A stretch of 64,000 nucleotides of DNA from Candidatus Magasanikiibacteriota bacterium (GCA_030650025.1 JAUSEN010000016.1:9428-73427); one strand, 5' to 3'. Numbered from the stretch's first letter, positions 7,479 through 61,744 are shown. Numbers and translations: made by a program. Notes: generated from the sequence alone by a model not told the origin.

Positions 7479-9275
7479 ATGCATAATAGGGGGCAGAATG
7501 GTTTTAGCTTAGTTGAAGTCATCGTGGCGGTGGCCGTGTTTGTGCTGTTTGCTCTTGGGGTTTACGGCGCGATAAATAGTATTTTGGTGATAGCGCGCGA
7601 GTCGCGCCTTAAAGTTGCTGTGGCTGGCGTGTTAAGCCAGCAAATGGAAATAATTCGTAGCGTGCCATATGACAGCGTCGGGACAATTAATGGCCTACCG
7701 AGCGGGGTGCTTTCAGCTACTTCTACGATTACCGATGGCGGCTTGGTTTTTAATGTCATTACTACAGTTAGTTTTACGGATGATGCCTTTGATGGAACCG
7801 CGACCAGTACACCCGCTGACACCAACCCGGCGGATTATAAAGTGGTGACCGTGGCAGTTAGGTGCGCCTTTTGCGTAAGCCAACAGCCAGCGGTGGGGCG
7901 CACGTTCGTGGCTCCTCCGGTTTTCGAGGGAGCGCCCGAGACCGGGTCGCTCTTTATTCATGTGGTGGACGCGGAAGGCTGGCCAGTACCTGGCGCCAGC
8001 ATCAGTATCAGAAATGATTTTGTTAATCCGCCAGTCGCTGTTGACGCGGTGACGGACATGGACGGCTGGTATACGCTATTAAGCGCTCCGACCAGCACTC
8101 TTGGCTATAATATTACTACCACTAAAAGTGGTTATTCGCTGGATTATACAGCGGCCTCTTCTACAAACAACCCCGCGCCCACCAAATTGCCGGCCAGCGT
8201 TAGTGTGGGGGCGGCCACGACCATCAGTTTCGCGATTGATTTAACAGCGACTCTAAATGTTAAGACAGTGGACAATGTCTGCGCGGGGGTTAGCGCCGTG
8301 CCTTTTGCGCTCTCTGGCCAGAAGTTGATTGGTTCTTTGCCAATGGTTTATAAATTTTATCAAGATTTTACTACTGATGGCGGTGGCGACAAAACTTTCA
8401 GCGCGCTCGAGTGGGATAATTATTCCATAATGTTAAATAGCGCTAATTATGACGTGGCGGGCACGGTGCCGCTTCTGCCTTTCCCACTTTTACCGGGGGC
8501 AGCGCAGAACGCTACGGTCGTAGTGGCTCCGCATTCTAATAATTCTTTATTGGTAATTGTTAAGGACGCGGTAACGGGGTTGCCGTTGGCGGACGCCACG
8601 GCCAGGCTAACTAAGTCTGGTTACGACCAATCCCTAGTGACTGGCCTTGGGTTTGTGGGGCAAACGGATTGGTCGCTCGGGAGCGGGCAAGAAAGTTTTG
8701 CCAACGCGCAAAAATATTTTTCGGATAGCGGCAGCTTGAATGTGGCCGGATCACCGGGCGATGTGGTGCTTAAATCGAGCGGAAATAATTCTTTTTTATC
8801 GTCCGGGTGGCTCGAATCCTCTACGTTTGACGCGCATACCAGCGACATTGCTTACGCTCATTTATATATAACGCCCACGGCGCAACCGCATAAAGCGGGA
8901 GCGACCCCGCTTCAGTTTCAGCTGGCCACGAGCAATTCGAGCTCGCCGGCGGTGTGGAATTTTTTGGGTTCAGATGGTTCAGCCAATACTTTTTATACCG
9001 CTACGAATACGGTGATAACATCGCTCCACAACGACCAACGTTATTTGCGTTACCGCGCCTTTTTGTCCACTGTTGATAATAAGTATACGCCCATACTCTC
9101 GGATTTTTATTATACATTCACGAGCAGTTGTACGCCTCCGGGCCAGGCATTTTTTACTAATTTAGCGGCCGCCACCTACACTTTGACTGTTTCTAAAACC
9201 GGGTATCAAACTAACAGCGGCTCTTTGAATATAGTGGGCAATGGGCAGGCGGTAGTTAATTTATCGCCCAGCTAG
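7479..9275 (+). CDS. large type IV pilin-like protein (prepilin leader MHNRGQNG|FSLVEV)
   Basis: Class III signal peptide with G|FSLVEV and a hydrophobic alpha-1 helix, followed by about 560 aa of Thr/Ser-rich beta-rich sequence. An extended -10 (tggtatact) lies at about 7455-7463. Confidence 0.75.
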   Translation: MHNRGQNGFSLVEVIVAVAVFVLFALGVYGAINSILVIARESRLKVAVAGVLSQQMEIIRSVPYDSVGTINGLPSGVLSATSTITDGGLVFNVITTVSFTDDAFDGTATSTPADTNPADYKVVTVAVRCAFCVSQQPAVGRTFVAPPVFEGAPETGSLFIHVVDAEGWPVPGASISIRNDFVNPPVAVDAVTDMDGWYTLLSAPTSTLGYNITTTKSGYSLDYTAASSTNNPAPTKLPASVSVGAATTISFAIDLTATLNVKTVDNVCAGVSAVPFALSGQKLIGSLPMVYKFYQDFTTDGGGDKTFSALEWDNYSIMLNSANYDVAGTVPLLPFPLLPGAAQNATVVVAPHSNNSLLVIVKDAVTGLPLADATARLTKSGYDQSLVTGLGFVGQTDWSLGSGQESFANAQKYFSDSGSLNVAGSPGDVVLKSSGNNSFLSSGWLESSTFDAHTSDIAYAHLYITPTAQPHKAGATPLQFQLATSNSSSPAVWNFLGSDGSANTFYTATNTVITSLHNDQRYLRYRAFLSTVDNKYTPILSDFYYTFTSSCTPPGQAFFTNLAAATYTLTVSKTGYQTNSGSLNIVGNGQAVVNLSPS

Positions 9276-9343
9276 CAGCCGCGCTTCAAAGGTCGTTCGC
9301 GACATCGCGAGAGACACTGCGCGGCATGATTTTGTCAAATCAT

Positions 9344-9940
9344 ATGAAATCGAATCAGAGTGTCAGAGGATTTACTTTAATTGAGGTCATGGTGGCCGTG
9401 GCGATATCGGCTTTGTTTTTTAGCGCGGTGGCGGAGATTTTTTTGACAAGCTTTAAAACCGCCGGGCTGGTGAGCGATGAGCTCGAAGGCCAGAGTGGCG
9501 CGCGGCGCGCGGTGAATGATTTTGTGAGCCAATTTAGGCTGGCTTCATACTCGAGCGCGGGTGACTACCCCCTGAAGACAGCCAATATTAATGAAATTGT
9601 TTTTTACGCCAATATTGATAAAGATAACTTAATTGAAAAAGTGCGTTATTATTTAACGGACACTACTTTATACCGAGGGGTAACTAAACCGATTGGCAAT
9701 CCCTTGTCGTATGGGTCAGCGAGTGAAACAGCGGAGACATTGCTCGAGGGGGTGCGGCTGAATGGGAACCCTTTATTTACTTATTACCCGGCGGGTATTG
9801 CCGAGGCGCTAGTCCAGCCAGTTGATATCACGACCGTGCGCTTGGCGGGCATTTATTTGCGCGTGGATAAGAAGCCAACGGCGTCGCCGACAGCTTGGAG
9901 CGTGGCGGCCCGGGCGCAGATGCGGAATCTTAAAAATTAA
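9344..9940 (+). CDS. type IV prepilin/pseudopilin (start moved to ATG 9344: MKSNQSVRG|FTLIEV)
   Basis: A classical prepilin leader appears only if the start is taken at the CATATG ATG (9344). The track's upstream ATG at 9326 lies inside the conserved leader palindrome. Confidence 0.75.
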   Translation: MKSNQSVRGFTLIEVMVAVAISALFFSAVAEIFLTSFKTAGLVSDELEGQSGARRAVNDFVSQFRLASYSSAGDYPLKTANINEIVFYANIDKDNLIEKVRYYLTDTTLYRGVTKPIGNPLSYGSASETAETLLEGVRLNGNPLFTYYPAGIAEALVQPVDITTVRLAGIYLRVDKKPTASPTAWSVAARAQMRNLKN

Positions 9941-12703: not shown

Positions 12704-12742
12704 GGCTCCGCGCGAGCGGAGTGAATTTTTGACAAAATTCAT
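12704..12742 (+). promoter_or_regulatory. leader module: GC hairpin (ctccgc-GCGA-gcggag) + palindrome TGAATTTT-tgac-AAAATTCA abutting the galU start codon
   Basis: Seen in sequence; same architecture at five other start codons (findings). Confidence 0.6.
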
Positions 12743-13609
12743 ATGCAAATAGTCCGTAAAGCCGTGATTCCGGTGGCGGGGTTTGGTACCAGGTTCTTGC
12801 CGGTGACTAAAGCCAGCCCTAAAGAAATGCTCCCGGTGGTGGACAAGCCCGTGGTGCAATATGTGGTGGAGGAGCTGGTCGCGTCCGGAATTACGGATAT
12901 TATTTTGGTTACCGGCGCGAGTAAAAGGGCGGTGGAGGACCACTTTGATTATAATTTTGAACTGCAAGCCTGGTTAAAAAAACAAGGCAAGTTAAAAGAA
13001 GAGCAAGAAGTGCGCCACATTGCCGAGATGGCGAATTTTATTTATATCCGCCAAAAAGGGAACTATGGCAATGGCACGCCGTTAATTTGCGCGAAAGATG
13101 TGGTGGGGAACGAGCCGTTTGTTTATATTTGGGGAGATGAGTTTGTGGGAGCGAATCCGCCGAGAGTGAAACAATGCTTGGACGTTTTTTATAAATATGG
13201 CGACCCGGTGGTGGCGGGCGTGCGCGTGCCCAAAAAAGACGTTAGCAAATATGGAATTGTTGAGGTGACAAAATTGGAAAAGAATATATATCAAATTTTT
13301 TCTTTTATTGAAAAACCCACTCCGCGCGAGGCGCCCTCAAATTTGGCGGCTCTCGGCTGTTATATTTTAACGCCCGATGTTTTTGATAATATTAAAAATA
13401 TTAAACCTGGCAAAAGTGGCGAGGTGTGGATTGTGGATTTGGTCAGCCGGCTCATGAAAAAGCGTCCGTTTTACGCCTGCGAAATTGCCAACGGCACTTA
13501 CTATGACACAGGTTCTAAACTTGGTTGGTTAAAAGCGAACGTGGATTTTGCTTTGCGCGACCCGCAGTTAAAGACAGAGTTTAAAAAATATTTGCGAAGC
13601 GTGGTATGA
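12743..13609 (+). CDS. galU: UTP--glucose-1-phosphate uridylyltransferase
   Basis: N-terminal AVIPVAGFGTRFLPVTKASPKEMLPVVDKPVVQYVVEE is the GalU signature. Confidence 0.9.
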   Translation: MQIVRKAVIPVAGFGTRFLPVTKASPKEMLPVVDKPVVQYVVEELVASGITDIILVTGASKRAVEDHFDYNFELQAWLKKQGKLKEEQEVRHIAEMANFIYIRQKGNYGNGTPLICAKDVVGNEPFVYIWGDEFVGANPPRVKQCLDVFYKYGDPVVAGVRVPKKDVSKYGIVEVTKLEKNIYQIFSFIEKPTPREAPSNLAALGCYILTPDVFDNIKNIKPGKSGEVWIVDLVSRLMKKRPFYACEIANGTYYDTGSKLGWLKANVDFALRDPQLKTEFKKYLRSVV

Positions 13610-17801: not shown

Positions 17802-17853
17802 AGATTTTAGCTATGTTGACGTTATTATTAAACATAGGAAGGGAGGTGACACT

Positions 17854-20962: not shown

Positions 20963-21052
20963 CGATTGCGCCGCGCTTCAAAGGACCCGCCCGCCTCGCT
21001 ACGCGAAGCGTTGCGGGCAGGCACTGCGCGGCACGATTTTGTTAAATCGCAT
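20963..21052 (+). promoter_or_regulatory. conserved structured 5' leader (variant B) ending in palindrome CGATTTTgttAAATCG + CATATG
   Basis: Shares gccgcgcttcaaagg...cactgcgcggca(c/t)gattt with leaders at 9278-9343 and 22911-22961; contains a nested GC palindrome homologous to 54606-54645. Confidence 0.55.
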
Positions 21053-21526
21053 ATGAAAAAACTTTTTGCGTATCAACTAGTGGCAGTATTCGTAGCGTTC
21101 CTCGCTTTGTCTTTTGTGGTAATAACCCCGGCGCGGGCGGAGGACACCAGCTCTGATATCCGGAAACAACTCGAGGCGGCGGGTGGCACGCAAGGCGCGA
21201 ATTATGGGGAAGCGGTTGACCCGCGAGTCACCGCGGCTTTGATTATTCGGGCGATGCTCGGCATGACTACGATTATTTTGATTATTTTAAATATTTACGC
21301 GGGAATCACTTGGATGACAGCCGGCGGAAACGAGGAAAAGGTGGACAAAGCCAAAACGACAATTAGAAATTCCACTATCGGACTGATTATTGTTTTGTCC
21401 GCTTACTCGATAACTGTTTTTGCCACTTACATCGCGCGGGGCCAGCAGTTTGGCCTCGGCGGCGGGCCTAACGCTTTATCGCGCGGTTTAGGCAATTTCT
21501 TCCAGTCGCGGCAGGGTCCGAATTAA
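21053..21526 (+). CDS. pilin-module paralog 10 (start moved to CATATG ATG 21053: MKKLFAYQLVAVFVAF...)
   Basis: The track ORF begins at 20822 but its first 77 aa are the translated GC-rich leader. A plausible signal peptide begins at 21053. C-terminal IYAGITWMTAGGNEEKVDKAKTTI module. Confidence 0.6.
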   Translation: MKKLFAYQLVAVFVAFLALSFVVITPARAEDTSSDIRKQLEAAGGTQGANYGEAVDPRVTAALIIRAMLGMTTIILIILNIYAGITWMTAGGNEEKVDKAKTTIRNSTIGLIIVLSAYSITVFATYIARGQQFGLGGGPNALSRGLGNFFQSRQGPN

Positions 21527-22712: not shown

Positions 22713-22910
22713 AAAAATAGCTTATCCCGCCACAGCGGGACCCCGCCTCGCGGCGGTGGGAAGGCTACTGTTTTATCCGCTCCGACGCCCCGCTTTGCGG
22801 GGGTCGGAGCCCCGACTTTACGTCGGGGTTAAACTATGGGATCAAGTGGCTCTATGGTAATCAATTTGGCCTTAAAAATCAAGTTATGGTATAATTTAAG
22901 AGTAACTAAT

Positions 22911-22961
22911 ATTTGCGCCGCGCTTCAGAGGACGTTGCGCGGCATGATTTCGTCAAATCAT
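22911..22961 (+). promoter_or_regulatory. conserved structured 5' leader (variant C) with palindrome TGATTTcgtcAAATCA + CATATG, preceded by an extended -10 (tggtataat at ~22888)
   Basis: ttgcgccgcgcttcagaggacgttgcgcggcatgatttcgtcaaatcatATG. Confidence 0.55.
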
Positions 22962-23324
22962 ATGTACAAGAAGATAAAAGTACTGTCGACTGTTTTTATA
23001 ACTTTTTTGGTTACTTGGCCAATGACAGCCCTGGCGCAATATGGTTTGAACGAAGCGGCCGGGAAAATGGGGTTTGATAGAAGCAAGAATGTTTACGGAG
23101 TGATTAGCCTCGTGGTGGGGGCAGCGTTGGCGTTTACCGGACTAGTGTTTTTTGGAATGATGATGTACGCTGGTGTGCGCTGGATGACCGCGCGCGGCAA
23201 CGAAGATTTGGCAGAGAAGGCCAAACAAGCCCTCGCGAATTCTACGATTGGTTTTGTAATCGTGGCGCTTTCTTACGCCCTGACGCGGTTTGTGTTTGGA
23301 GCGCTTAATTTGCCGACATTTTAA
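22962..23324 (+). CDS. pilin-module paralog 11 (start moved to ATG 22962: MYKKIKVLSTVFITFLVTWPMTALA)
   Basis: C-terminal MYAGVRWMTARGNEDLAEKAKQALANSTIGFVIVALSYALTRFV; the track ORF starts upstream inside the leader. Confidence 0.6.
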   Translation: MYKKIKVLSTVFITFLVTWPMTALAQYGLNEAAGKMGFDRSKNVYGVISLVVGAALAFTGLVFFGMMMYAGVRWMTARGNEDLAEKAKQALANSTIGFVIVALSYALTRFVFGALNLPTF

Positions 23325-30529: not shown

Positions 30530-32310
30530 GGTGCGTACCGCAAAAAGGTCGTTTTTTACGACCGCCACGTCCCCTGCACCAGAACGCTTCGCGTCCGGTT
30601 CAGGGCTTCGCAGTCTAGCTCTGGCTACTAGCGAAGCGCCACTCGGGACCTCTAGAAAATTGCGTAGCTTACACAAAAAACGATGTATATTGCTACAAAA
30701 TTTACTCGAGTTACTCCAAGTGGTTAAAAACCCCACCCATTTTATTGGGCCGCTTGGAAAAGCGGCTTTTATTATTTTGGTCGGCTCAGATCGGTGAGAC
30801 AGAGATTTCTCCCCGCTCTAGGCGGGTCGAAATGACAGTGCAGAGTGGACTGGCTGGTACTTTGACAATTCAGGCAAGCACCATGCACCACCATAAACCA
30901 CAAGGGTTTATGGCAAACAAGGGTGCATGGCTAAATAACCATGAACCACAAGGGTTCATGGCAAGATTAATGCTTATTTTAAACATCAAGGTCTGGTGTT
31001 TAAAATAATAAAGGGTAACTTCATAAACATGAATATTGTCATGAAAAATTATGAAGTCAACTCAACGTAAGCACCATTTGGTGTTTTCGTTGTGTGCAAT
31101 TTCAACAAGAGCATATGGTGGATGCCTAGACACTAAAAGATGAAGAAGGACGTTGCAAGGTGCGATAAGCCTCGGGGAGCTCCTAAGCAAGCTGTGATCC
31201 GGGGATTTCCGAATGGGGAAACCCGTTACAAAGAAATTTGTAACATCGTATACTGAATTCATAGGTGTACGAGGAAGACCTGGCGAAGTGAAACATCTCA
31301 GTAGCCAGAGGAAAATAAATCGAAGAGATTCCCTTAGTAGTGGCGAGCGAAAAGGGATCAGCCTAAACCTTATACATGTTGTTGCCGTAACAGATTGATC
31401 GCAAGGTTAATTATGAGCGGCAGTTTAAAGACGCAGGTCGTTGTGTATATGGTGTAATAAGACAATTACGCGTCCGCCCTGCGGCGGACGGTGAAAATGT
31501 GACTTTCCTAGTAGAACGCTCTGGAACGAGCGGCCGCAGAGGGTAAGAGCCCCGTACGCGAAAGGAGTCTATATAATCATGGTAGTTGTTCTTGAGTAGG
31601 GCGGAACTCGTGAAATTCCGTCTGAATTCGGGCCGACTATGGTCTAAGGCTAAATACTTTTAGTGATCGATAGTGGACTAGTACCACGAGGGAAAGGTGA
31701 AAAGTAGCCCGGTGAGGGCGATGAAATAGTATCTGAAACCATATGTTTACAAAGAGCGGAAGACCGGAGTACCCAGAATTATTCCCCCCTACGGGGGGAA
31801 TAATTCTGGGTCCTGGTCGACCGTGTTCCTATTGAAGAATGAGCCTGCGAGTGTGCTGTATGTCGTTGCTTAAACCCTTCTGGGGTGGAGGCATAGCGAA
31901 AGCGAGTCTTAACGGGCGTATATAATGGCATGCACATAACCCGAAACCGGGTGAGCTATCCATGACCAGGATGAACCCTTCCGAAAGGAAGGGGGAGGTC
32001 CGAACACACGAGCCGTGCAACACTCGGTGATGAGTTGTGGATGGGAGAGAAATTCTAATCGAACTCGGTGATAGCTGGTTCTCCTTGAAATAGTTTTAGG
32101 ACTAGCCTCGCGCGTTCCCTTTGGCGGTAGAGCACTGGATGAGACTCGGGTCCTTCGGGATACCAGTTTCAATCAAACTCCGAATGCCGAAGATTAAAAG
32201 CGCGGGAGTCAGACTGTGGGGGCTAAGCTCCATAGTCAAAAGGGAAACAGCCCTGATCGCCAGCTAAGGTCCCTAAATCCATATTAAGTGTGAAAGGTGG
32301 TGTTAACTCT

Positions 32311-32348
<38 letters not shown>

Positions 32349-33172
32349 TAAAGAAAGCGTAACAGCTCACTGGTCAAGAGTTTTCGCGCCGAAAATGTAC
32401 CGGGGCTAAATATGGTACCGAAGCTGCGAATTGGTAGATCCTCCGGGATTTACCTCTGGTAAAGGAGCGTTGGTAGCTGCGCTGAAGCCATAGCCGCGAG
32501 GCGTGGTGGAGTGCTACCAAGTGAGAATGCAGGCATGAGTAACAATAAGGGAAGTGAGAATCTTCCCCGCCGAAAATCCAAGGTTTCCTGGGCAACGAGA
32601 CTCGACCCAGGGTTAGTCGATCCTAAGGCCAGGCCGAAAGGCGTAACCGATGGAAGAGCAGGTTAATATTCCTGCACTTGGTATAGTTTGTTTGTTAGTG
32701 CGCATAGTGAAGCTGACAGCGTGTTTTGAATATACACGTTTCTTTACCCCGACGTGAAGTCGGGGCAGGGACGAAGATGAAGCCTTCGGGTGGAGTCAAC
32801 TGTCGGGGACGCTGTGCCTAGAAAAGCTAATAAACGTTAAGCTATATCAAACCGTACCGTAAACCGACACAGGTAGGTGAGTCGAGAAGACTAAGGCGTA
32901 CGAGAGAACCCTCTTTTAGGAACTCTGCAATACAGCGGCCGTAACTTAGGGATAAGGCCCGCCCCGATGTAAAAATCGGGGTTACAACAAAAGACGCACT
33001 GCGACTGTTTACCAAAAACACAGCTCCCTGCAAAAGCGCAAGCTGAAGTATAGGGAGTGATGCCTGGCCAGTGTCAGAACGTTAAGGCGAGAGGTTATCC
33101 GGTCATCCGACCGGAGAAGCCTTGAACTGAAGCGCTGATGAACGCCGGCGGTAACTATAACCGTCCTAAGGT

Positions 33173-33408
33173 AGCGGACTTGAGAAATCGAGCACGCTAG
33201 GATTGGGACGGATATAGCAAAAAGTAAACAATCATTAAAGATGAGCAGAGTCATCGAAATATTAACAGCCATTCAAAAAATGCTACCTTGCTTTGCAGTA
33301 ATGCAAAGAATAATCCGGTCATAGCTTATGAGAGACTATACGCTATGCTCCTCCGACGAAACTCGGAGGAAGAAGATTTAGTCCTTCGTCATTAAACAGG
33401 AAACGAAG
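33173..33408 (+). mobile_element. group I-like intron (ORF-less), inserted after the U of GGU|AGCG (E. coli ~L1931, helix 69/70 region)
   Basis: The conserved ccgtcctaaggt.agcgaaattccttgtcgg is interrupted by 236 nt; the 5' exon ends in U and the insert ends in G. Confidence 0.6.
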
Positions 33409-33430
33409 AGCGAAATTCCTTGTCGGGTAA

Positions 33431-33682
33431 ACCAAGAACTTGCCCCCTGGTCGAGTAATTGACCTTGAAGCAATAGCTGTATCGGTGGAACCCATAAAAA
33501 ATCGTGCAGATTAATTATGGGCAATACCGAGGGAAGTCCTCCCAAAATGGAGTGACCCCGTAGAGACTACACGCTGTCTCCCGAGTTATTCGGGATGAAG
33601 ATATAGTCCGATCCTGCCGAGTAATTGGCAGCCCTACGAAAATCAAAAATCTAAAATCATAAATCGAAAATTCGTAGATGGA
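33431..33682 (+). mobile_element. second 23S insertion (~252 nt) within GGGUAA|GUUCCGACC (E. coli ~L1951-1953); intron-like, ORF-less
   Basis: Conserved flanks gggtaa and gttccgacctgcacgaatgg are contiguous in E. coli; boundaries are uncertain by 1-2 nt. Confidence 0.55.
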
Positions 33683-34208
33683 GTTCCGACCTGCACGAAT
33701 GGCATAACGATAGTGCGACTGTCTCAAAGAGGGACTCGGTGAAATTGCAAGGAAGGTGAAGATGCCTTCTACCCGCAACTAGACGAAAAGACCCCGTGAA
33801 GCTTTACTACAGCTTGCTATTGGTATACGTGCACGTATGTTGAGCGTAGGTGGGACCCGCAAGGGGCCAATGAGACACCACCCTTATGTATATGTATGCC
33901 TAATCTCTGCCCGTGAATCCGGGGAGGGAGACAGTGGCTGGCGGGTAGTTTATCTGGGGCGGATGCCTCCTAAAATGTAACGGAGGCGTTTACAAAGGTA
34001 GGCTTAGCGCGGATGGAAATCGCGCTGGACGTGCAAACGCAAAAGCCTGCTTTACTGCAAGGGCTACAACCCGCGCAGTTGCGAAAGCAGAAGTTAGTGA
34101 ACCGACCATCCTATATAGGAAGGTGGAAGATCAACGGATAAAAGCTACTCCGGGGATAACAGGCTGATCGCGCCCAATAGTCCACATAGACGGCGCGGTT
34201 TGGCACCT

Positions 34209-34573
34209 TAAATTATCGGGGTGCATACAAAGTGATTTGTTTCCAAGTTTTTTCGTCTAAAACAATTATGTTAAGATAGAAATAGAGATTTAAATCGGCT
34301 TATAACGGTGAACCCGTCATCCCGCCTAAGGCGGGATCGGCAATACCGTGGGAAGTCGCCCATTAACTGTGGGTTGACCCCGTAACGACTGACCCGAAAG
34401 GGGAGACTCGGTTACAGTTAGTAATCGGGTAATACGCCGACTCTTATATTAATCAAACTGAGATCATGCGACTCACGCCCCGAGCAAGTCCCGAAAGGGA
34501 CAAGTCGAGGGGTCCGCTAACATCCAGTATAAGAAGAAGATATAGTCTGCCCCATACGAAAGTATGGAATCAT
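34209..34573 (+). mobile_element. third 23S insertion (~365 nt) in the peptidyl-transferase-centre strand GGCACC|U(A)CGAUGUCGG (E. coli ~L2500); intron-like, ORF-less
   Basis: tttggcacc ... tacgatgtcggctcatc flanks; no long ORF inside. Confidence 0.55.
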
Positions 34574-34636
34574 GTACGATGTCGGCTCATCGCATCCTGG
34601 GGGTGAAGAAGCTCCCAAGGGTTTGGCTGTTCGCCA

Positions 34637-34688
<52 letters not shown>

Positions 34689-35124
34689 CTATCTGTTGCG
34701 GGCGCAGAATGTTGCAAAGACTCTTCCCTAGTACGAGAGGACCGGGAAGAATAAACCTCTGGTGTGCGAGTTGTTCCGTCAGGAGCATTGCTCGGTAGCT
34801 ACGTTTAGCACGGATAAACGCTGAAAGCATCTAAGCGTGAAGCCGTCTTTAAGATTAACATTCGTTATAGACCCCTTGTAGATTACGAGGTTGATAGGCT
34901 CTACGTGTAAGCACAGTAATGTGTTGAGCGGAGGAGTACTAATCGGTCGAGCGCACAACGAAAGCATTAAGTGGTGCTCACCTCTTCGGTGAGTCTACGA
35001 GTTATGTTTGCCATGTCATTCGACATGGCCTTGCCTGAATTTAGTCATTGTAGTAAACTATTTTGAAAATTCCCCCGCCAAAAGCGGGATCAGCTCGCTA
35101 ACGCGAGCCGAAAAAAGAACTAAT

Positions 35125-44532: not shown

Positions 44533-45280
44533 TAATGTCGCGACGGTAATATTGGCCGCAGGGGAAGGCAGGCGGATGCAAAGCGCTTTGCCCAAAGTTA
44601 TGCATGAGCTTAGTAGGAAGCCGTTGATTGAATATGTGGTAAAGGCGGCAGAAGATTCTGGCGTGGCCGGGAGTTTAGTAGTAGTAGCGAGCGCAACAGG
44701 GCAGGCAGTGCAGGATTATTTAGGAGAGCGGGTAAGTTATGTGGTGCAGTCGCAGCAGCTTGGTACCGGGCACGCGGTAGCGGCTACGGAAGATTTTTTT
44801 AAAGAGCAATCAGACGAAATAGAAAGTATGGTGGTGCTTTATGGCGACATGCCATTTATCTCGCCCCAGTCGATTAAGCGTTTGACGGGAGAGCATATTG
44901 CTAAGCGCAATGTGCTAACCGTGATGACTGCCACGGTGCCAAATTTTGAGGGTACTAACAGCCAGTTTAAAGATTTTGGTAGGATCGTAAGGAATAGTAG
45001 GGGAGAGATTGAGAAGATTGTTGAGTATAAAGACGCGAGCGTGGCAGAAAAAAATATTGGTGAGGTAAATACTGGATTTTTCTGTTTTGACGCGCCGTGG
45101 CTTTGGTCGCATCTAAAGTTAATTAGGAACTCCAATGACCAGGGCGAATATTATTTGACGGATTTAGTGGGGCTCGCGATTCAAGGCGGGTATCCCATTA
45201 GCACAGTTTTGGTGGAAGTTAGCGAAGCGATTGGGGTTAATACCAAAGAGCAGTTAGAAAGATTGCATGTTATTAATTAA
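44507..45280 (+). CDS. sugar-1-phosphate nucleotidyltransferase (GlmU N-terminal-domain-like, no acetyltransferase domain)
   Basis: VILAAGEGRRMQSALPKVMHEL... nucleotidyltransferase fold; the left-handed beta-helix is absent. Confidence 0.7.
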   Translation: MTILKRNPSNVATVILAAGEGRRMQSALPKVMHELSRKPLIEYVVKAAEDSGVAGSLVVVASATGQAVQDYLGERVSYVVQSQQLGTGHAVAATEDFFKEQSDEIESMVVLYGDMPFISPQSIKRLTGEHIAKRNVLTVMTATVPNFEGTNSQFKDFGRIVRNSRGEIEKIVEYKDASVAEKNIGEVNTGFFCFDAPWLWSHLKLIRNSNDQGEYYLTDLVGLAIQGGYPISTVLVEVSEAIGVNTKEQLERLHVIN

Positions 45281-45287
45281 GTAAATT

Positions 45288-45326
45288 CGCTCCACGCGAG
45301 TGGAGTGATTTTCTGAGGAAAATCAT
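45288..45326 (+). promoter_or_regulatory. leader module: hairpin ctccac-GCGA-gtggag + palindrome TGATTTT-ctgagg-AAAATCA abutting the glmS start codon
   Basis: It begins 8 nt after the upstream stop codon and ends at CATATG. Confidence 0.6.
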
Positions 45327-47168
45327 ATGTGTGGAATTGTTGGGTACATTGGAAAAAAACAGGCGTTACCGATTTTGCTTAATGGCTTGAAGCGTTTGGA
45401 ATACCGAGGGTATGATTCCGCGGGCGTGGCAGTATTAAATGAGGGGTTGTTTCAGACTACGCGATCGGTCGGTAAGATCGATAATTTGGTGGCAAAAATG
45501 CAAGATGAAAAAATAGGTGGGGCGAGCGGAATAAACGGGACGATGGGAATCGCTCACACCCGCTGGGCTACGCATGGCGGTGTTACCGAGGAAAATGCCC
45601 ATCCGCATAAGGATTGCACGGGTAATTTGATGATTGTGCATAATGGTATTATAGAAAATTATCGCGAACTTAAAGAAGATCTTGGTAAAAAACATGAATT
45701 TAAATCGCAGACTGATACGGAAGTGCTGGCGCATTTAATTGAGTCTTTATATAAAGGCGATTTACGGCTGGCAGTGGAAGCCGCTCTGGCTAAGGTGCGC
45801 GGGACATATGGATTGGTAGCTATGCATGCCAGCGAGCCCACAAAAATAGTAGCGGCGCGTTTGGGGAGCCCGCTCGTGGTGGGAGTGGGCGATAAAGAAT
45901 ACTATGTAGCTTCCGACACTTCGCCAATGCTGGCGCACACGCAGCAAGTGATTTTTTTAGATGATGGCGAAATCGCGGAAATTAGCGAACACGGGGTGCA
46001 GATTTATAATTTGGCTGATGAGAGGCTGAATAAACCAAGTGAAAAAATTGATTGGGACGAAACTACGGCCGAGCGGCAAGGGCATGACCACTTTATGCTT
46101 AAAGAAATTTTGGACCAGCCCACGGTTATTAAAGATGCTTTGCGCGGCCGTTTGGTAGAGAGCGATGGCACGGCTCGTCTCGGCGGCCTCAACATGACCG
46201 AGGAAGAAATGCACAAGATTAAGAGGGTGATATTGATCGCGTGTGGGACAGCGAGTTATGCCGCTCTCGTCGGTAAATATGCCTTTGAACGTTTAGCGGG
46301 GTTACCGACTACCGTAGAAATTGCCAGTGAATTTCGCTACAGCGACCCGGTGATAGATAATCACACTTTGGTTTTTGGCATCTCACAGTCTGGGGAAACC
46401 GCTGATACGCTCGCGGCCTTGCGCGAAGCCAAACGCAAGGGCGCGTTTGTGCGTGGTATTGTTAATGTGGTAGGTTCGACAATCGCTCGCGAAACTGATG
46501 GCGGCACCTATATTCACGCGGGGCCAGAATTGGCGGTCGCTTCGACAAAAGCGTTTATGAATATGATAGGCGTTTTGCTGATGTACGCGTTGCAGTTTGG
46601 GCGAGTAAATCGCCTGGCTGTGGCCACGGGCCAGCGTTTAGTTAAAGCCATGCTCCAGATTTCGGGAAAGATGAAGCAGACGCTCGAGTTAAGCGATCAA
46701 ATTAAAATTCTCGCCAAAAAATATTCTGGTTATAAAAATTATTTTTTCTTGGGGCGAGGAGTTAATTACCCGGTAGCTTTGGAAGGGTCTCTGAAACTTA
46801 AAGAATGTTCATATATTCATAGCGAAGCTTACCCGGGAGGGGAAATGAAGCATGGGCCAATCGCGCTTTTGTCGCCGGATTTCCCGGTGATGGCGATTAT
46901 GACCAAAAACCAGCTCTACGATAAAATGCGCAGCAATGTTGAAGAGATTAAGGCGCGTCAGGCGCCGCTGATAATTATAGCGACCGAGGGGGATGATAAG
47001 GCCAAAGAGCTCTCTGAAGATGTAATATATGTTCCTGCCACGATGGAGCTTTTAGAGCCGTTAATTAATACGATCCCGCTCCAGCTGTTTGCTTACCACA
47101 CCGCAGTAATGCTCGGGCGCGATGTTGACCGCCCGCGCAATTTAGCAAAGAGCGTGACTGTTGAGTAA
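45327..47168 (+). CDS. glmS: glutamine--fructose-6-phosphate aminotransferase
   Basis: MCGIVGY N-terminal nucleophile and two SIS domains; the C-terminus ends ...SVTVE. Confidence 0.9.
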   Translation: MCGIVGYIGKKQALPILLNGLKRLEYRGYDSAGVAVLNEGLFQTTRSVGKIDNLVAKMQDEKIGGASGINGTMGIAHTRWATHGGVTEENAHPHKDCTGNLMIVHNGIIENYRELKEDLGKKHEFKSQTDTEVLAHLIESLYKGDLRLAVEAALAKVRGTYGLVAMHASEPTKIVAARLGSPLVVGVGDKEYYVASDTSPMLAHTQQVIFLDDGEIAEISEHGVQIYNLADERLNKPSEKIDWDETTAERQGHDHFMLKEILDQPTVIKDALRGRLVESDGTARLGGLNMTEEEMHKIKRVILIACGTASYAALVGKYAFERLAGLPTTVEIASEFRYSDPVIDNHTLVFGISQSGETADTLAALREAKRKGAFVRGIVNVVGSTIARETDGGTYIHAGPELAVASTKAFMNMIGVLLMYALQFGRVNRLAVATGQRLVKAMLQISGKMKQTLELSDQIKILAKKYSGYKNYFFLGRGVNYPVALEGSLKLKECSYIHSEAYPGGEMKHGPIALLSPDFPVMAIMTKNQLYDKMRSNVEEIKARQAPLIIIATEGDDKAKELSEDVIYVPATMELLEPLINTIPLQLFAYHTAVMLGRDVDRPRNLAKSVTVE

Positions 47169-56370: not shown

Positions 56371-57063
56371 ATGGCGCTAACGGTTTTATACGAAGATAAC
56401 CATTTAATCGCGGTTTTTAAACCGGCGGGGGTTTTAGTGCAGGGAGATAAAACTGGAGATGCCACCTTGATGGACGAAGTCAAGTATTATTTAAAACAAA
56501 AATACCATAAAACCGGCAAAGTTTTTTTGGGGCTCATTCACCGGCTCGATCGGCCGGTCGCGGGCGTAGTGTTATTTGCTAAAACCAGTAAAGGGGCCAG
56601 CCGCCTTAGCGAGCAATTCAGAAATCATACCGTAGAAAAAATATACGAAGCCTTAGTTGAGGGAGTGCCACCTCAAGGACAAGGGCAGTTAGTGCATTTT
56701 TTAAAAAAAGATAAAGAGGGGAACGTTACCACGGTTTATGATAATTTTGTGCCTGGTAGCCAACGGGCGGAATTGCAGTATGAAGTTTTAGATGAAAAAA
56801 TGGTTGGGCCAGTAGGGAACACGCCCCAGGCGCGTTCCCTACTGCGAATTAAATTAGGTACGGGCCGAAGCCACCAGATTCGCGCGCAACTCGCCAAAAT
56901 TGGCTGTCCGATTGTCGGCGATGTTAAGTATGGTGCAAGTTCGGCTTTAGAGGATAAAGCCATTGCCCTGACTGCCGCGTCTCTGATATTTGATACGGCC
57001 ACCGGAGAGAAAAGGGTTACCGTGCGTGTGGATAGTTTTCTAGACAAAGCCTTCACACCGTGA
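56371..57063 (+). CDS. RluA-family pseudouridine synthase
   Basis: HRLDRPVAGVVLFAKT catalytic Asp motif. Confidence 0.8.
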   Translation: MALTVLYEDNHLIAVFKPAGVLVQGDKTGDATLMDEVKYYLKQKYHKTGKVFLGLIHRLDRPVAGVVLFAKTSKGASRLSEQFRNHTVEKIYEALVEGVPPQGQGQLVHFLKKDKEGNVTTVYDNFVPGSQRAELQYEVLDEKMVGPVGNTPQARSLLRIKLGTGRSHQIRAQLAKIGCPIVGDVKYGASSALEDKAIALTAASLIFDTATGEKRVTVRVDSFLDKAFTP

Positions 57064-57116
57064 TAACCTGACAAAGTATTCAATTTTACTTATTTTTTTA
57101 ACTCATTTTTAATTAA

Positions 57117-57155
57117 CGTCCCGACGTACGTCGGGACATGATTTCGTAAAATCAT
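57117..57155 (+). promoter_or_regulatory. leader module: hairpin gtcccgac-gta-cgtcgggac + palindrome TGATTTcgtaAAATCA abutting the start codon
   Basis: Ends at CATATG 57153-57158. Confidence 0.55.
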
Positions 57156-58304
57156 ATGCGAAAGCTTAAGTTTTTGGGGGCAATGGCAGCAGGTTTGGCG
57201 CTTTTCGGCGCCGGGTGTTCTTTTACTCCGCCAGGAGAGAAGTCTGTTACAGAGGGTAGCTATGTCCCTAAAACAGCTGATACTAGCCCAATTAAAATTG
57301 GTTGGGTGGGGCCTTTGACAGGGGACGCGGCGAGTGTTGGTAAAGACGCGTTGACAGCGGCGCAGTTGGCAGTGGAGGAAGTGAATGCCGCGGGCGGCAT
57401 TAACGGGCGAATGCTTGAACTTGTGGCCGAAGACGGCAAATGTAATCCTAAAGACGCGGCTACGGCAGGGAATAAGCTTATTAATGTAGACAAAGTCCCG
57501 GCGATTGTGGGGACGGCGTGTTCAGGCGAGATGATGGCAATTGCGCCAACTGCCGAACAGAATAAAACAATTATGGTGGGTTACTGCGCTTCGGCTCCGA
57601 CGGTCAGCGCGGCGGGTGATTATATCTTTCGCACGTATCCGTCCGATGTTCTGCAATCCAAATTTGTCGCTGAATATGTTTATAATACTCTTGGCAAGAA
57701 GAAAGTGGCCACGCTTGCCGTCCTCGGCGATTGGGGGACTGGCCTTAAGAACGGCTTTGAACAGCGCTTTAAAGAATTAGGCGGAGAAGTTGTTTCTTCT
57801 CAAGACTATGTGCAGGAAAGTCGCGATTTACGCACACAGTTGACTAAAGCCAAGGACAGCCAGCCCGAGATTTTATTTTTTGTCGGATACACAGAAGCTT
57901 CGATTGCTGGTTTAAAACAAGCTAAAGAGCTCGGCCTTAATGTATCGATAATTGGCGGCGATGCCTGGGATGACACCAAGATTCATGCTAATTCTTTTGC
58001 CGAGGGCATTATGTACAGTGTCGGGGCCGCGCCCCAGTATGACCTGGCCTGGGTAGAAAAATTAAAACAGAAGGGCGCTACCACCAATGTCTGCGTGCCT
58101 CGTTCGTATGACAACGTCAAACTCCTGGCAGAAATTATGAAACGGACTGGGACGGACACTGCTAAAATTAAAGACGAGCTGTACAAGGTGCAAGGTTATC
58201 AAGGAATTGGTGGCATAGTAAATATGGACAGCAACGGTGACAATACTTCTGCCCAGTTCCAAATTAAAGTAGTTAAGAACGGCAAAGCCGAAGCGGCAAA
58301 ATAA
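57156..58304 (+). CDS. branched-chain amino acid ABC transporter substrate-binding lipoprotein (LivJ/LivK family)
   Basis: Lipobox FGAGCS; IKIGWVGPLTGDAASVGKD...INGRMLELVAEDGKC. Confidence 0.8.
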   Translation: MRKLKFLGAMAAGLALFGAGCSFTPPGEKSVTEGSYVPKTADTSPIKIGWVGPLTGDAASVGKDALTAAQLAVEEVNAAGGINGRMLELVAEDGKCNPKDAATAGNKLINVDKVPAIVGTACSGEMMAIAPTAEQNKTIMVGYCASAPTVSAAGDYIFRTYPSDVLQSKFVAEYVYNTLGKKKVATLAVLGDWGTGLKNGFEQRFKELGGEVVSSQDYVQESRDLRTQLTKAKDSQPEILFFVGYTEASIAGLKQAKELGLNVSIIGGDAWDDTKIHANSFAEGIMYSVGAAPQYDLAWVEKLKQKGATTNVCVPRSYDNVKLLAEIMKRTGTDTAKIKDELYKVQGYQGIGGIVNMDSNGDNTSAQFQIKVVKNGKAEAAK

Positions 58305-58381
58305 AAATTGCTTAATCAGAGTCTTCAAGCGGGCGCCCCGCGCCACAGGCACGGGGCGCCCGTTCTGTAAATTGGCGTAAT

Positions 58382-59287
58382 ATGGAAATCGCCAGTGCCG
58401 CAATTTTGCCCCAGCTCATAGTCAACGGCCTGATAGCCGGGGCAATGTATTCTCTTACGGCCGCAGGGTTCTCGCTGGTGTACGCGACGAATCGTTTTTT
58501 GAATTTGGCACACGGTGGCATAATGATGGTGGGGGCGTACCTCGTGTATACGTTTTTTAATCTGGCTGGTTTAAATTTTTACGCGGCGAGCTTTTTGGCA
58601 GTGATTTGCACCAGCCTGTTTGGGGGATTTTTGTTTGTAAGCGTTTATCGGCCGCTCCGCCAGAAAAAAGCGGCCAATATGGTAATGCTTATCGCCGCCG
58701 CTGGCTTAGCAATACTCTTAGAAGCGCTCGTTACCTTAATTTTTGGCACTGACGTTAAACAGCTGAATTTTATCAGCGTGCAAGAGGGGTGGCATATCGC
58801 CGGGGCGATTATTACTCCGCTCCAGCTTGTCGTGATGGCAGTATCGGCCGTTCTTTTGGTGAGTTTCGCGGTTTTTATGAAGTATAGCTCTTGGGGCAAA
58901 TTAATCCGCGCTGTTGCCGATAATGCTGATTTAGCGCGCACCACCGGTATTAACCCTTACGCTGTGCAATTATGGAGTTTTGTGATCGCGTGCGCCATCG
59001 CGAGCGTAGCCGGAATTTTAATCGGCCTGGAGCGCAATATCGAGCCGCGCATGGGCTTGGGCTTCGCGCTGGTTAGTTTTGCTAGCACGGTAGTAGGCGG
59101 CATGGGTTCGCTCCCCGGGGCAATACTCGGGAGTTATTTGATAGGGCTAGCAGAAAATGTCGGTCAGTGGATTCTGCCTTCTGGCTATAAAGAAGCTATT
59201 TGGCTTGTGATGCTGTTTTTGTTTTTACTTATCCGCCCGAGCGGAATTTTTGGCACGGAGCAAGGGGTGCGGCAAACAAAATTATGA
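58382..59287 (+). CDS. livH: branched-chain amino acid ABC permease
   Basis: LivH-like TM protein in operon context. Confidence 0.7.
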   Translation: MEIASAAILPQLIVNGLIAGAMYSLTAAGFSLVYATNRFLNLAHGGIMMVGAYLVYTFFNLAGLNFYAASFLAVICTSLFGGFLFVSVYRPLRQKKAANMVMLIAAAGLAILLEALVTLIFGTDVKQLNFISVQEGWHIAGAIITPLQLVVMAVSAVLLVSFAVFMKYSSWGKLIRAVADNADLARTTGINPYAVQLWSFVIACAIASVAGILIGLERNIEPRMGLGFALVSFASTVVGGMGSLPGAILGSYLIGLAENVGQWILPSGYKEAIWLVMLFLFLLIRPSGIFGTEQGVRQTKL

Positions 59288-60156: not shown

Positions 60157-60228
60157 CACAGATTACCTGCCCGCAATGCTTCGCATAGCGAGGCGGGCGG
60201 GCGCAGATTCATTTGGATTAAACAGATT

Positions 60229-60957: not shown

Positions 60958-60993
60958 TGTTTATTTACGGAACAACAATTTTCTCGCTAACTG

Positions 60994-61725: not shown

Positions 61726-61744
61726 AAGTCGGATAAGTTTTTTT

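What the first reader, a model, noticed from the sequence alone, without database searches (positions are those of the whole stretch)
9278..9346. Conserved GC-rich structured leader (variant A) ending in the start-codon palindrome, upstream of a prepilin gene
Sequence: gccgcgcttcaaagg-[tcgcga-cat-cgcgag hairpin]-cactgcgcggcaTGATTTtgtcAAATCAtATG. The outer arms ccgcgc/gcgcgg and the terminal palindrome are shared with leaders at 20963-21052 and 22911-22961 (both before VirB2-like pilin paralogs); the inner hairpin differs between copies. The element starts at the stop codon of the upstream pilin gene. The classical prepilin leader only appears if translation starts at the CATATG ATG (9344).
Basis: seen in the sequence. 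Interest (0 to 1): 0.55.

Follow-up and report, generated by a model that had tools for sequence, protein, structure and literature searches.

The report
Pseudoknotted start-codon leader repeat of Patescibacteria
The flagged sequence is one copy of an apparently undescribed ~48-nt folded element, found many times per genome across the tiny "candidate phyla radiation" bacteria, that sits directly against the start codons of pilin, ribosomal, chaperone and other genes in organisms that barely use the normal ribosome-binding site.

Summary
9278-9346 folds into a GC stem (P1, with an extra inner hairpin), then an AU hairpin (P2) that ends one base before ATG 9344. The window (a Ca. Magasanikbacteria MAG) holds six such modules, all abutting true start codons. 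An exact search for the P2+ATG 22-mer found 61 loci, almost all Patescibacteria of several classes, in front of DnaK, GroEL, EF-Tu, ribosomal proteins, SecE and pilins. P1 and P2 covary. A loop-loop base pair (GAC-R with Y-GU) covaries almost perfectly (46/48; 40/40; 17/17), indicating a pseudoknot-like tertiary contact. Rfam 15 and the literature searches returned nothing. These genomes show no Shine-Dalgarno enrichment. In an unbiased set, 37/48 copies are followed within 0-2 nt by a real ORF, and 17/48 fill a whole intercistronic gap. The module also behaves like an insertable repeat. Copy A is absent from four orthologous prepilin loci. Copies occur nested and in tandem, in frame inside ORFs, and as standalone promoter-motif-terminator units. 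Best reading (inferred): a duplicative structured mRNA leader that supports SD-independent expression of the abutting gene. Rivals are a regulator-binding site, a purely selfish repeat and a processing signal.

The parts
9278..9284 (+). Copy A, P1 5' arm GCCGCGC
   Evidence: Pairs with 9319-9325 in the MFE fold. The same arm occurs at 20970 and 22917. P1 covaries across the family.
9285..9318 (+). Copy A, P1 loop (L1): UUCAAAGG, inserted inner hairpin (core 9296-9311), then GACACU. GACA 9313-9316 is the 5' strand of the loop-loop contact.
   Evidence: Canonical copies have a 13-14 nt loop UUYAAWGGACRNU. Copies A and B carry an extra hairpin at the same loop position. GACA matches P2 loop UGUC, following the family-wide R:Y covariation.
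9319..9325 (+). Copy A, P1 3' arm GCGCGGC
9326..9343 (+). Copy A, P2 hairpin AUGAUUU-UGUC-AAAUCAU (zero-nt linker from P1)
   Evidence: The P2 stem covaries in the P1-anchored set.
9344..9346 (+). Start codon of the prepilin-type gene (9344-9940), immediately after P2
   Evidence: Pfam N_methyl at residues 7-29. Copy B lacks the upstream ATG.
20970..21055 (+). Copy B: P1 20970-20976/21026-21032 with a 35-nt inserted hairpin in L1; P2 CGAUUU-UGUU-AAAUCG 21034-21049; CAU; ATG 21053 (T4SS_pilin gene)
   Evidence: 29 bits; z -3.7. The U-A to C-G change in P2 is compensatory.
22915..22964 (+). Copy C: canonical motif (P1 22917-22923/22937-22943, L1 UUCAGAGGACGUU, P2 22944-22961, ATG 22962; T4SS_pilin gene)
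   Evidence: 75.6 bits. A promoter-like TTGGCC-18-TG-TATAAT lies at 22866-22895 upstream. The copy is conserved at syntenic L084 4980-5029.
57116..57158 (+). Copy D: plain GC hairpin GUCCCGACG-UA-CGUCGGGAC + canonical P2 + ATG 57156 (periplasmic binding protein)
   Evidence: 46.9 bits; (z -3.9)
12705..12745 (+). Simplified module: GNRA-capped GC hairpin + AU hairpin GAAUUUU-UGAC-AAAAUUC + AU + ATG 12743 (NTP_transferase/GalU-like)
   Evidence: 15.4 bits, E 0.096, borderline; z -4.2. The upstream gene is divergent, so there is nothing to terminate here.
45289..45329 (+). Simplified module: GC hairpin CUCCAC-GCGA-GUGGAG + AU hairpin + AU + ATG 45327 (GlmS); fills the gap after the upstream gene (stop 45278-45280)
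   Evidence: 18.3 bits, E 0.019; z -4.0

Best explanation
9278-9346 is one copy of a multi-copy, Patescibacteria-wide structured module. It consists of a 7-bp GC helix P1 whose 13-nt loop (UUYAAWGGACRNU) contacts the tetraloop (YGUN) of an immediately following 6-7-bp AU helix P2, and the start codon follows P2 by 0-2 nt. It is transcribed as part of the mRNA, either as a 5' leader or as the whole intercistronic spacer, and acts in cis on the gene it abuts. The most likely function is a Shine-Dalgarno-independent expression module. Its compact fold would present the AUG right at its 3' edge for ribosome loading, hide the upstream in-frame AUG/GUG inside P2, and shield an otherwise AU-rich leader from nucleases. 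The module spreads by a copy-and-insert process. Copy A is a recent insertion placed exactly between the stop codon of the large pilin-like gene and the start of the prepilin-type gene, which would replace translational coupling with independent initiation. Shown: the structure with its covariation, the distribution, the position relative to start codons, the absence of SD usage, and the insertion polymorphism. Inferred: transcription through the element, and any effect on translation or stability.
For: Structure. P1 is 97-98% paired with compensatory changes. The P2 stem shows double changes at 3 pairs. The tertiary pair R20:Y39 reads G:C 29 / A:U 17 / G:U 1 / other 1, Fisher p = 7e-11. It is 40/40 in the P2-anchored set and 17/17 in the inner units of nested copies. 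Position. All six window copies end on verified start codons. In the P1-anchored, ATG-blind metagenome set, 37/48 copies have an ATG 0-2 nt after P2 that opens a real ORF, and 17/48 have an upstream same-strand ORF ending <=15 nt before P1. Gene set. Downstream genes include EF-Tu, uS5, S12, S14, S20, L9, L11, L24, L35, L36, DnaK, GroEL, enolase, SecE, SecA, SSB and pilins, and the same genes recur in different lineages. No SD. An SD core occurs upstream of 6/60 window genes against 6/60 for an in-gene control, and 41/420 against 49/420 in related loci. The anti-SD is reported missing in about half of Parcubacteria (PMC9297842). Paralogous T4SS-pilin genes in the window carry either a strong SD (17854) or the motif (21053, 22962). 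Copy C is conserved at a syntenic locus far above the flanking genes.
Against: There are no expression, structure-probing or ribosome-binding data. A hairpin that ends at position -1 would normally hinder 30S binding. Some copies cannot act on initiation: two lie in frame inside ORFs (L176, L063), two are promoter-motif-terminator units with no ORF (L123, L124), and about 20% have no adjacent ATG. Copy A and the GalU module are missing at orthologous sites, so the element is dispensable there. G:U versus A:C mismatch counts do not identify the folded strand. Only two loop-loop pairs are supported; the two further pairs I proposed are not. There is no fixed spacing to -10 boxes.
Confidence: 0.45

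Rival explanations
1. The element is an operator for a trans-acting global post-transcriptional regulator. A protein, or another titratable factor, would recognise the folded P1-L1-P2 unit on many mRNAs for growth-related and envelope genes and repress or activate their translation. Standalone copies would act as decoys, as CsrB does for CsrA.
For: The primary sequence of L1 and P2 is very strongly conserved across classes, beyond what pairing alone needs. The downstream gene set is large and coherent in being highly expressed. Promoter-motif-A-run-terminator units with no ORF exist (L123, L124). The element lies directly on the initiation region.
Against: No candidate protein was identified. 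The CsrA-type GGA is not conserved (GGAC in 26/40; the rest are UGAC, CGAC or AGAC). Only two standalone copies were seen. Presence/absence at orthologous genes is odd for a fixed regulon.
Confidence: 0.17
2. The element is a purely selfish short palindromic repeat of the REP / MITE / Rickettsia-palindromic-element type. It would be mobilised as DNA, perhaps as a folded single strand, and survive mainly where insertion is harmless. In these compact genomes that means just upstream of start codons. The covariation would reflect the structure needed for mobilisation.
For: Copy A and the GalU module are absent at orthologous loci. Nested and tandem copies exist, including whole units inserted exactly between P1 and the (C)ATG of P2. 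In-frame copies sit in ORF linkers with filled and empty alleles. Copy number is high (6 in 64 kb). The wobble statistics fit DNA as well as RNA.
Against: Harmlessness alone does not explain the strict sense orientation or the 0-2 nt abutment to real start codons in 37/48 unbiased copies. The element recurs at the same housekeeping genes in distant lineages (uS5 in L002/L018/L028/L034/L097; DnaK; EF-Tu; SecE; L9). A syntenic copy is conserved at 96% against ~69% flanks. 22-mers are identical across classes. No terminal inverted repeats, target-site duplication or transposase were seen. No copies were found in IMG/VR.
Confidence: 0.15
3. The element is an RNA processing signal. An RNase, or the element itself acting as a small ribozyme, would cut at a defined site. 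A cut at the P2/AUG boundary would yield leaderless mRNAs. A cut 5' of P1 would separate cistrons and leave a protected 5' end. This would be analogous to tRNA punctuation in mitochondria or HDV-like ribozymes in R2 elements.
For: The element fills intercistronic gaps (17/48). It is a compact pseudoknotted fold abutting the AUG. These genomes initiate without SD, which suits leaderless or 70S initiation. The L1 sequence UUCAA resembles a T-loop (from memory, untested).
Against: No match to any ribozyme or tRNA-like family in Rfam, even at E <= 10. Cleavage is untestable here. The distance P2-AUG varies by 0-3 nt and the -1 base varies.
Confidence: 0.08
4. The element is a small pseudoknot riboswitch or thermosensor for a global signal. 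Ligand or temperature would stabilise the L1-P2 contact and P2, controlling access to the AUG.
For: Its size and topology resemble preQ1-I/II, SAM-II and guanidine-III aptamers. There are conserved unpaired nucleotides in L1. P2 is weak and AU-rich and lies next to the AUG. DnaK and GroEL are among the targets.
Against: The downstream genes have no common metabolic theme. There are dozens of copies per genome. Copies occur inside ORFs and as standalone units. The simplified copies (12705, 45289, 57116) lack L1 altogether.
Confidence: 0.05
5. The element is a DNA-level signal: an intrinsic terminator of the upstream gene, a promoter for a leaderless transcript, or a palindromic operator for a dimeric DNA-binding protein.
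For: There is a GC hairpin followed by a U-containing stretch. A TAAAAT-like hexamer lies near the ATG. P2 is a perfect palindrome.
Against: The terminator scan finds none at copy A, and the tail AUGAUUUY has only 4 U. Copies at 12705 and 22915 follow divergent genes. The -10-like hexamer sits at -9..-4, too close to a +1 at the A of ATG. No + strand promoter was found at copy A. The P1 stem covariation, and the covariation between the P1 loop and the P2 loop, are not explained by double-stranded DNA recognition.
Confidence: 0.04

Closest known systems
Short interspersed palindromic repeats co-transcribed with mRNAs (REP/BIME, Neisseria Correia/NEMIS elements, ERIC, Rickettsia palindromic elements)
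   Same: Multi-copy, hairpin-forming and located in transcribed intergenic space. They show insertion polymorphism between relatives and nesting, and, like RPEs, in-frame copies inside ORFs.
   Different: The element is much shorter (~48 nt). No TIR, TSD or associated transposase was seen. It has strict sense orientation and 0-2 nt abutment to start codons and a covarying loop-loop tertiary pair. It is conserved at the same housekeeping genes across class-level lineages.
Structured translation-initiation regions: hairpin-bridged ('split') ribosome-binding sites of phage T4 genes 38 and 25; viral IRES pseudoknots; HDV-like ribozymes preceding R2 ORFs (all recalled from knowledge, not tested)
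   Same: A compact folded RNA sits directly 5' of the start codon and is proposed to help initiation rather than block it.
   Different: The T4 cases still use an SD. The IRES and R2 cases are eukaryotic. None is a genome-wide, multi-copy bacterial element. No sequence or structure similarity was found (Rfam negative).
H-type pseudoknot riboswitches (preQ1-I/II, SAM-II/V, guanidine-III) and ribosomal-protein mRNA operator pseudoknots (rpsO/S15)
   Same: A 35-55 nt hairpin whose loop pairs with a neighbouring segment, located on the initiation region.
   Different: There is no SD to sequester, the downstream genes are unrelated, there are many copies per genome, and only two tertiary pairs are supported.
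CsrA/RsmA target hairpins and CsrB-type decoy RNAs
   Same: An A(N)GGA-like loop near the start codon of many mRNAs; standalone copies followed by terminators (L123, L124).
   Different: GGA is not conserved, and the conserved GAC is engaged in the loop-loop contact.
5'-terminal stabiliser stem-loops (ompA, ermC, aprE leaders)
   Same: A stable GC hairpin at or near the mRNA 5' end in some copies (-10-like boxes 3-20 nt upstream).
   Different: There is no consistent spacing to promoters. A third of copies are internal to operons. The loops are conserved and there is a second helix.

Membership tests
Any Rfam 15 family | Covariance-model score at or above the family's gathering threshold | tested here: not met
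   The whole window at gathering thresholds gives only rRNA, tRNA and a group I intron. Permissive scans (E<=10) of copy C, copy A and a canonical Nomurabacteria copy gave nothing meaningful.
Intrinsic (Rho-independent) terminator | GC-rich stem-loop immediately followed by a U-tract (>=5 U in 8) | tested here: not met
   No terminator-like site at 9100-9450. The canonical tail is AUGAUUUY. Copies at 12705 and 22915 have no co-directional upstream gene.
Sigma-70 promoter of a leaderless mRNA | -10 hexamer about 6-8 nt upstream of a +1 at the A of ATG, with a -35 or extended -10 | tested here: not met
   The only -10-like hexamer (TAAAAT/TCAAAT) lies at -9..-4. There is no + strand promoter at copy A. 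No conserved -35 is present, because the region is the covarying P1 stem.
Shine-Dalgarno ribosome-binding site | Anti-SD-complementary purine run 5-10 nt upstream of the start codon | tested here: not met
   Positions -1..-18 are the AU hairpin. Genome-wide there is no SD enrichment.
H-type pseudoknot | Hairpin loop base-paired to a segment outside the hairpin, supported by covariation | tested here: inconclusive
   One covarying pair (R20:Y39: 46/48, 40/40, 17/17) next to an invariant C19:G40. The two further pairs I tried are paired in only 40-46% of sequences. A tertiary contact is supported; a full second helix is not.
Riboswitch | Conserved aptamer upstream of genes tied to one metabolite or ion | tested here: not met
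   The downstream genes are functionally unrelated: pilins, r-proteins, chaperones, GlmS, SBP, RNase HI, NrdR and others. Ligand binding is not testable here.
CsrA/RsmA binding site | GGA conserved in the hairpin loop | tested here: not met
   GGAC occurs in 26/40 copies of the L1-unbiased set. The others have UGAC, CGAC or AGAC.
MITE / Correia-like element | Terminal inverted repeats and a target-site duplication at filled versus empty sites | tested here: not met
   In the filled versus empty alleles of the HTH-SocA gene, 44 nt replace ~17 nt with no duplication. The stop/start junction of copy A compared with L182 shows none either. The comparisons are between diverged sequences, so the result is weak.
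REP / RAYT system | Conserved tetranucleotide (GTAG-type) beside the hairpin, and a RAYT (Y1 transposase) gene in the genome | not tested
   No GTAG-type flank is visible in the alignments. Presence of a RAYT gene could not be assessed from 64 kb plus 8-kb loci.
Rickettsia-palindromic-element-like repeats | Palindromic repeat found in frame inside protein-coding genes as well as in intergenic DNA | tested here: met
   L176 (HTH_XRE-SocA linker, GRASKDTARHDFTKSE) and L063 (GRASMDSARHDSVESE) carry the motif in the same reading frame. Most homologues of the L176 protein lack the segment. There is no sequence relation to RPEs.
Known small self-cleaving ribozymes (pistol, twister, hatchet, hammerhead, HDV-like) | Match to the family model; site-specific self-cleavage | tested here: not met
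   No Rfam match. Cleavage itself is not testable with these tools.

The most novel reading that the evidence does not exclude
Patescibacteria that have largely abandoned Shine-Dalgarno pairing use a portable, pseudoknotted RNA cassette as a general ribosome-loading signal, in effect a bacterial IRES-like or SD-helix-mimicking element. The cassette is copied in front of genes that need high, coupling-independent expression. It would be a new mode of bacterial translation initiation carried by a mobile module.
Probability: 0.3. Interest if true: 0.95.

Novelty: new variant of a known kind. Interest (0 to 1): 0.78.

Why it matters
Patescibacteria/CPR make up a large share of bacterial diversity. 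They have reduced ribosomes, and in many lineages the anti-SD is missing or unused. How they select start codons and achieve high expression is unknown. Here a ~48-nt element with strong covariation sits directly against the start codons of EF-Tu, ribosomal-protein, chaperone, secretion and pilin genes across several classes. This gives a concrete, testable candidate for that mechanism, or alternatively for a global post-transcriptional regulon. It also improves start-codon annotation: gene callers pick the in-frame AUG inside P2, for example 9326 instead of 9344. It adds an apparently undescribed RNA family to model. Finally, it shows a short repeat that inserts precisely at gene starts and even in frame into ORFs, which matters for understanding genome evolution in these streamlined organisms.

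Tried and rejected
(1) Intrinsic terminator. The scan was negative and some copies follow divergent genes. (2) Leaderless promoter or operator. The geometry is wrong, and the P1 and loop-loop covariation is not explained. (3) SD presented in the P1 loop, or pairing of the P2 5' arm (UGAUUU) with the 16S GGAUCA tail. GGA is not conserved, and changes in the P2 arm are compensated within P2 rather than held to a fixed rRNA sequence. The 16S gene is in neither the window nor the loci, so its 3' end could not be read. (4) Fixed spacing between -10 boxes and P1, meaning P1 would always be the mRNA 5' end. The histogram shows no peak. (5) Strand assignment from G:U versus A:C mismatches. Inconclusive: 8 vs 12 and 3 vs 5. 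(6) Extending the loop-loop helix to 4 bp. Not supported. (7) Phage copies. None in IMG/VR; the five P1-pattern hits are chance matches. (8) TIGR-Tas arrays of CPR. These are unrelated tandem guide arrays with a different architecture. (9) Literature. Nine full-text searches and two papers read for this question (PMC9297842, PMC5737381) gave no description of this motif. (10) Clean target-site duplication at filled versus empty sites. None seen.

Full report
OBSERVATION. GCCGCGC (9278-9284) pairs with GCGCGGC (9319-9325). The enclosed loop starts UUCAAAGG, carries an inner hairpin (core UUCGCG-ACAU-CGCGAG, 9296-9311) and ends GACACU. Then, with no linker, comes AUGAUUU-UGUC-AAAUCAU (9326-9343), followed immediately by ATG 9344. 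The upstream 598-aa pilin-like ORF stops at 9273-9275. The 15-mer GCCGCGCTTCARAGG occurs exactly three times in the window, at 9278, 20970 and 22917. The palindrome TGATTT-N4-AAATCA occurs three times against 0.36 expected, and 0 of 100 shuffles reach three. ViennaRNA folds copy A into exactly this architecture (-32.1 kcal/mol, z = -4.7).

MORE COPIES IN THE WINDOW. Listing all CATATG contexts and searching with a covariance model (R1) gave six modules. All are on the + strand and all end on a start codon.
- Copy C, 22915-22964, 75.6 bits, canonical.
- Copy D, 57116-57158, 46.9 bits.
- Copy A, 39.6 bits.
- Copy B, 20970-21055, 29 bits, with a 35-nt hairpin inserted in the loop.
- Two simplified modules at 45289-45329 (E 0.019) and 12705-12745 (E 0.096). 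Each has a GNRA-capped GC hairpin followed by an AU hairpin and AU-ATG.
Pfam confirms the downstream genes: N_methyl prepilin-type (A), T4SS_pilin (B, C), Peripla_BP_6 (D), NTP_transferase (12743) and GlmS (45327). GlmS must begin MCGIVG, and copy B has ACG where A and C have the upstream ATG. The ORF lister picks 9326 instead.

THE FAMILY. An exact scan of one genome per species for CATGATTTYGTNAAATCATATG returned 61 loci; by my estimate about one is expected by chance. Almost all are Patescibacteria: Nomurabacteria, Paceibacterota, Magasanikbacteria, Zambryskibacteria and Saccharibacteria-labelled MAGs. A few MAGs are labelled Gammaproteobacteria, but their genes resemble the Magasanikbacteria ones. 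In nearly every hit the terminal ATG opens an ORF. The genes include DnaK, GroEL, enolase, L24, L11, L36, S20, L9, uS5, SecE, prepilins and many signal-peptide proteins, plus S14 and SecA. Upstream there is almost always a 7-bp GC stem with the loop UUYAAWGGACRNU. In 40 simple copies P1 is 97% paired, with double changes at 4 of 7 pairs.

I then scanned metagenomes with a pattern anchored only on the P1 5' arm and the start of the loop. This scan is blind to P2 and to the ATG. It gave about 50 true copies, in front of EF-Tu, S12, L35, ATP synthase gamma, an RpoC-like gene, MscL, RNase HI, NrdR, SSB, SecE and L9. In these copies the P2 stem covaries: UA<->CG at two pairs and GC<->AU at one.

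A TERTIARY PAIR. The base after GAC in the P1 loop covaries with the first base of the P2 tetraloop. The counts are G:C 29, A:U 17, G:U 1, other 1 (Fisher p = 7e-11). The pair holds in 40/40 copies of the P2-anchored set and in 17/17 inner units of nested copies. The neighbouring C:G is invariant. Two further pairs that I proposed are not supported. Copy A (GACA / UGUC) and copy C (GACG / CGUC) obey the rule within one genome. The topology is that of an H-type pseudoknot with P1 sitting in its first loop, but only a two-pair contact is demonstrated. G:U versus A:C mismatch counts do not tell which strand folds. The sense-strand assignment rests on the invariable orientation relative to genes.

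CONTEXT.
- The window is a Ca. Magasanikbacteria MAG.
- Its genes show no Shine-Dalgarno enrichment. An SD core lies upstream of 6/60 genes against 6/60 for an in-gene control. In the related loci the figures are 41/420 against 49/420.
- This fits the report that about half of Parcubacteria lack the anti-SD motif (PMC9297842).
- In the unbiased set, 37/48 copies have an ATG 0-2 nt after the P2 core that opens a real ORF.
- In 17/48 a same-strand upstream ORF ends <=15 nt before P1. In those cases the element is the whole intercistronic spacer and must be co-transcribed unless a promoter lies inside the upstream gene.
- Copy C has a good extended -10 promoter about 20 nt upstream.
- There is no fixed promoter spacing family-wide.
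- Among the window's T4SS-pilin paralogues, one has a strong SD (17854, GGGAGGTGA) and two have the motif.

CONSERVATION AND TURNOVER. L084 is syntenic with the window: T4SS pilin, S15 and onward to the 23S rRNA gene. It keeps copy C at 96% identity over 53 nt, while the flanking genes are ~69% identical. The four available orthologues of the gene after copy A (64, 59, 36 and 31% identity) have no element. Three junctions are visible: TAA-TTTTTT-ATG in L182, overlapping ATGA in L184, and a 1-nt gap in L185. The GalU orthologue in L183 also lacks its module. Copy A is therefore a lineage-specific insertion exactly between the stop and start codons.

Other signs of a copy-and-insert process:
- Whole units sit inside the P1 loop of another unit (L031, L016, L008, L020, L053).
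- Whole units sit exactly between P1 and the (C)ATG of P2 (L037, L058).
- Two copies lie in frame inside ORFs (L176, L063). Filled and empty alleles exist in the very widespread HTH_XRE-SocA family.
- Two units consist of promoter, motif, A-run and terminator with no ORF (L123, L124).
No TIR or TSD was seen, and no phage copies were found.

WHAT IT IS NOT.
- It matches no Rfam 15 family, even at E <= 10.
- It is not a canonical terminator.
- It is not a promoter for a leaderless mRNA, because the hexamer geometry is wrong.
- It is not an SD.
- It is not a CsrA site, because GGA is not conserved.
- It is not a TIGR array.
- Nine literature searches and two papers read for this question gave no description of it.

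INTERPRETATION. The following are shown: a structured, covarying element, its multi-copy and phylum-wide distribution, its tight association with start codons in SD-poor genomes, and its gain and loss at individual loci. The function is inferred. I favour (0.45) a duplicative mRNA leader or intercistronic module that supports SD-independent, coupling-independent expression of the abutting gene. It could do this by presenting the AUG at the edge of a compact fold, hiding the upstream AUG/GUG, and protecting an AU-rich leader. The rivals are:
- a binding platform for a global regulator, with decoy copies (0.17);
- a purely selfish REP/RPE-like repeat that survives next to start codons (0.15);
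- a processing or ribozyme signal that yields leaderless mRNAs (0.08);
- a riboswitch or thermosensor (0.05);
- DNA-level signals (0.04).
The copies that cannot act on initiation (in-ORF and standalone) and the dispensability at orthologous loci are the main evidence against a purely functional reading. The orientation, the 0-2 nt abutment, the recurrence at the same housekeeping genes in distant lineages and the conservation of the syntenic copy are the main evidence against a purely selfish one. A domesticated mobile module reconciles both sets of evidence.

VERDICT. It is too narrow in two respects: the element is not pilin-specific, and copy A is not conserved at orthologues. The element belongs to an apparently undescribed family. 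That family is of high interest for translation initiation and genome evolution in Patescibacteria.

Noticed in passing
window, all predicted gene starts (e.g. one search list): Position -1 before the start ATG is T in 52 of 60 window genes (87%), and in 60% of 420 genes in related loci. No Shine-Dalgarno enrichment accompanies it. The organism seems to use a U-AUG start context instead of an SD.
   Followed up: partly
window 17837-17853 and 63233-63250 (- strand): A few genes do carry long perfect SD-like runs, such as GGGAGGTGA before the T4SS-pilin paralogue at 17854 and GGGAGGTG before a 20-aa Lys-rich ORF at 63230(-). The canonical anti-SD is therefore probably still present but rarely used.
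   Followed up: no
L123 1727-1830; L124 (- strand) around 1455-1504: Standalone units: a -10-like box, the full motif, an A-run and an intrinsic-terminator-like hairpin, with no ORF. These are possible small RNAs or decoys carrying the motif.
   Followed up: partly
L176 2053-2829; L192 301-1107; L063 520-1689: The motif DNA lies in frame inside ORFs and encodes G-RAS(K/M)D(T/S)ARHD... In the HTH_XRE-SocA antitoxin family it replaces the usual EKKE..KQ linker in a minority of alleles.
   Followed up: yes
L176 2053-2829 and homologues P0008-P0127: This HTH_XRE + SocA/Panacea protein has about 7000 homologues, the best 120 at 73-95% identity and nearly constant length, across Patescibacteria metagenomes. 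That is unusually conserved and abundant for an antitoxin-like gene. In one locus (L176) it sits near a cytosine-methyltransferase-like ORF.
   Followed up: no
window 56664-61769 versus L023 5950-5555: The ABC-transporter operon headed by copy D (57156-61725) is absent from the syntenic region of a related Magasanikbacteria MAG: about 5.1 kb in the window against ~0.4 kb in L023. It is an indel whose 5' edge carries a motif copy.
   Followed up: partly
window 22715-22835: A cluster of GC-rich hairpins lies between the divergent tRNA genes and copy C, e.g. CCCGC-CACA-GCGGG and CCGACTTTACGTCGG. The last resembles the P1 hairpin of copy D (GTCCCGACG..CGTCGGGAC).
   Followed up: no
window 31093-34959 (intron hit 33419-33631): The 23S rRNA gene is interrupted by a group I intron, and no 16S gene lies upstream. 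Both are typical CPR rRNA features.
   Followed up: no
window 9326-9343 and other P2 hairpins: The P2 5' arm begins with AUG or GUG in most copies. Depending on the loop, this AUG either opens a 3-codon mini-ORF (AUG AUU UCG UAA, copy D) or is in frame with the real start (MISSNH-M...). Gene callers therefore tend to over-extend N-termini by 6 codons.
   Followed up: partly
L024, L039, L041, L042, L045, L048, L051, L052, L061: Motif-bearing contigs sit in MAGs labelled Pseudescherichia or uncultured Gammaproteobacteria. Their genes resemble Magasanikbacteria ones (e.g. L045 vs L026), so these look like taxonomic mislabels or bin contamination.
   Followed up: no
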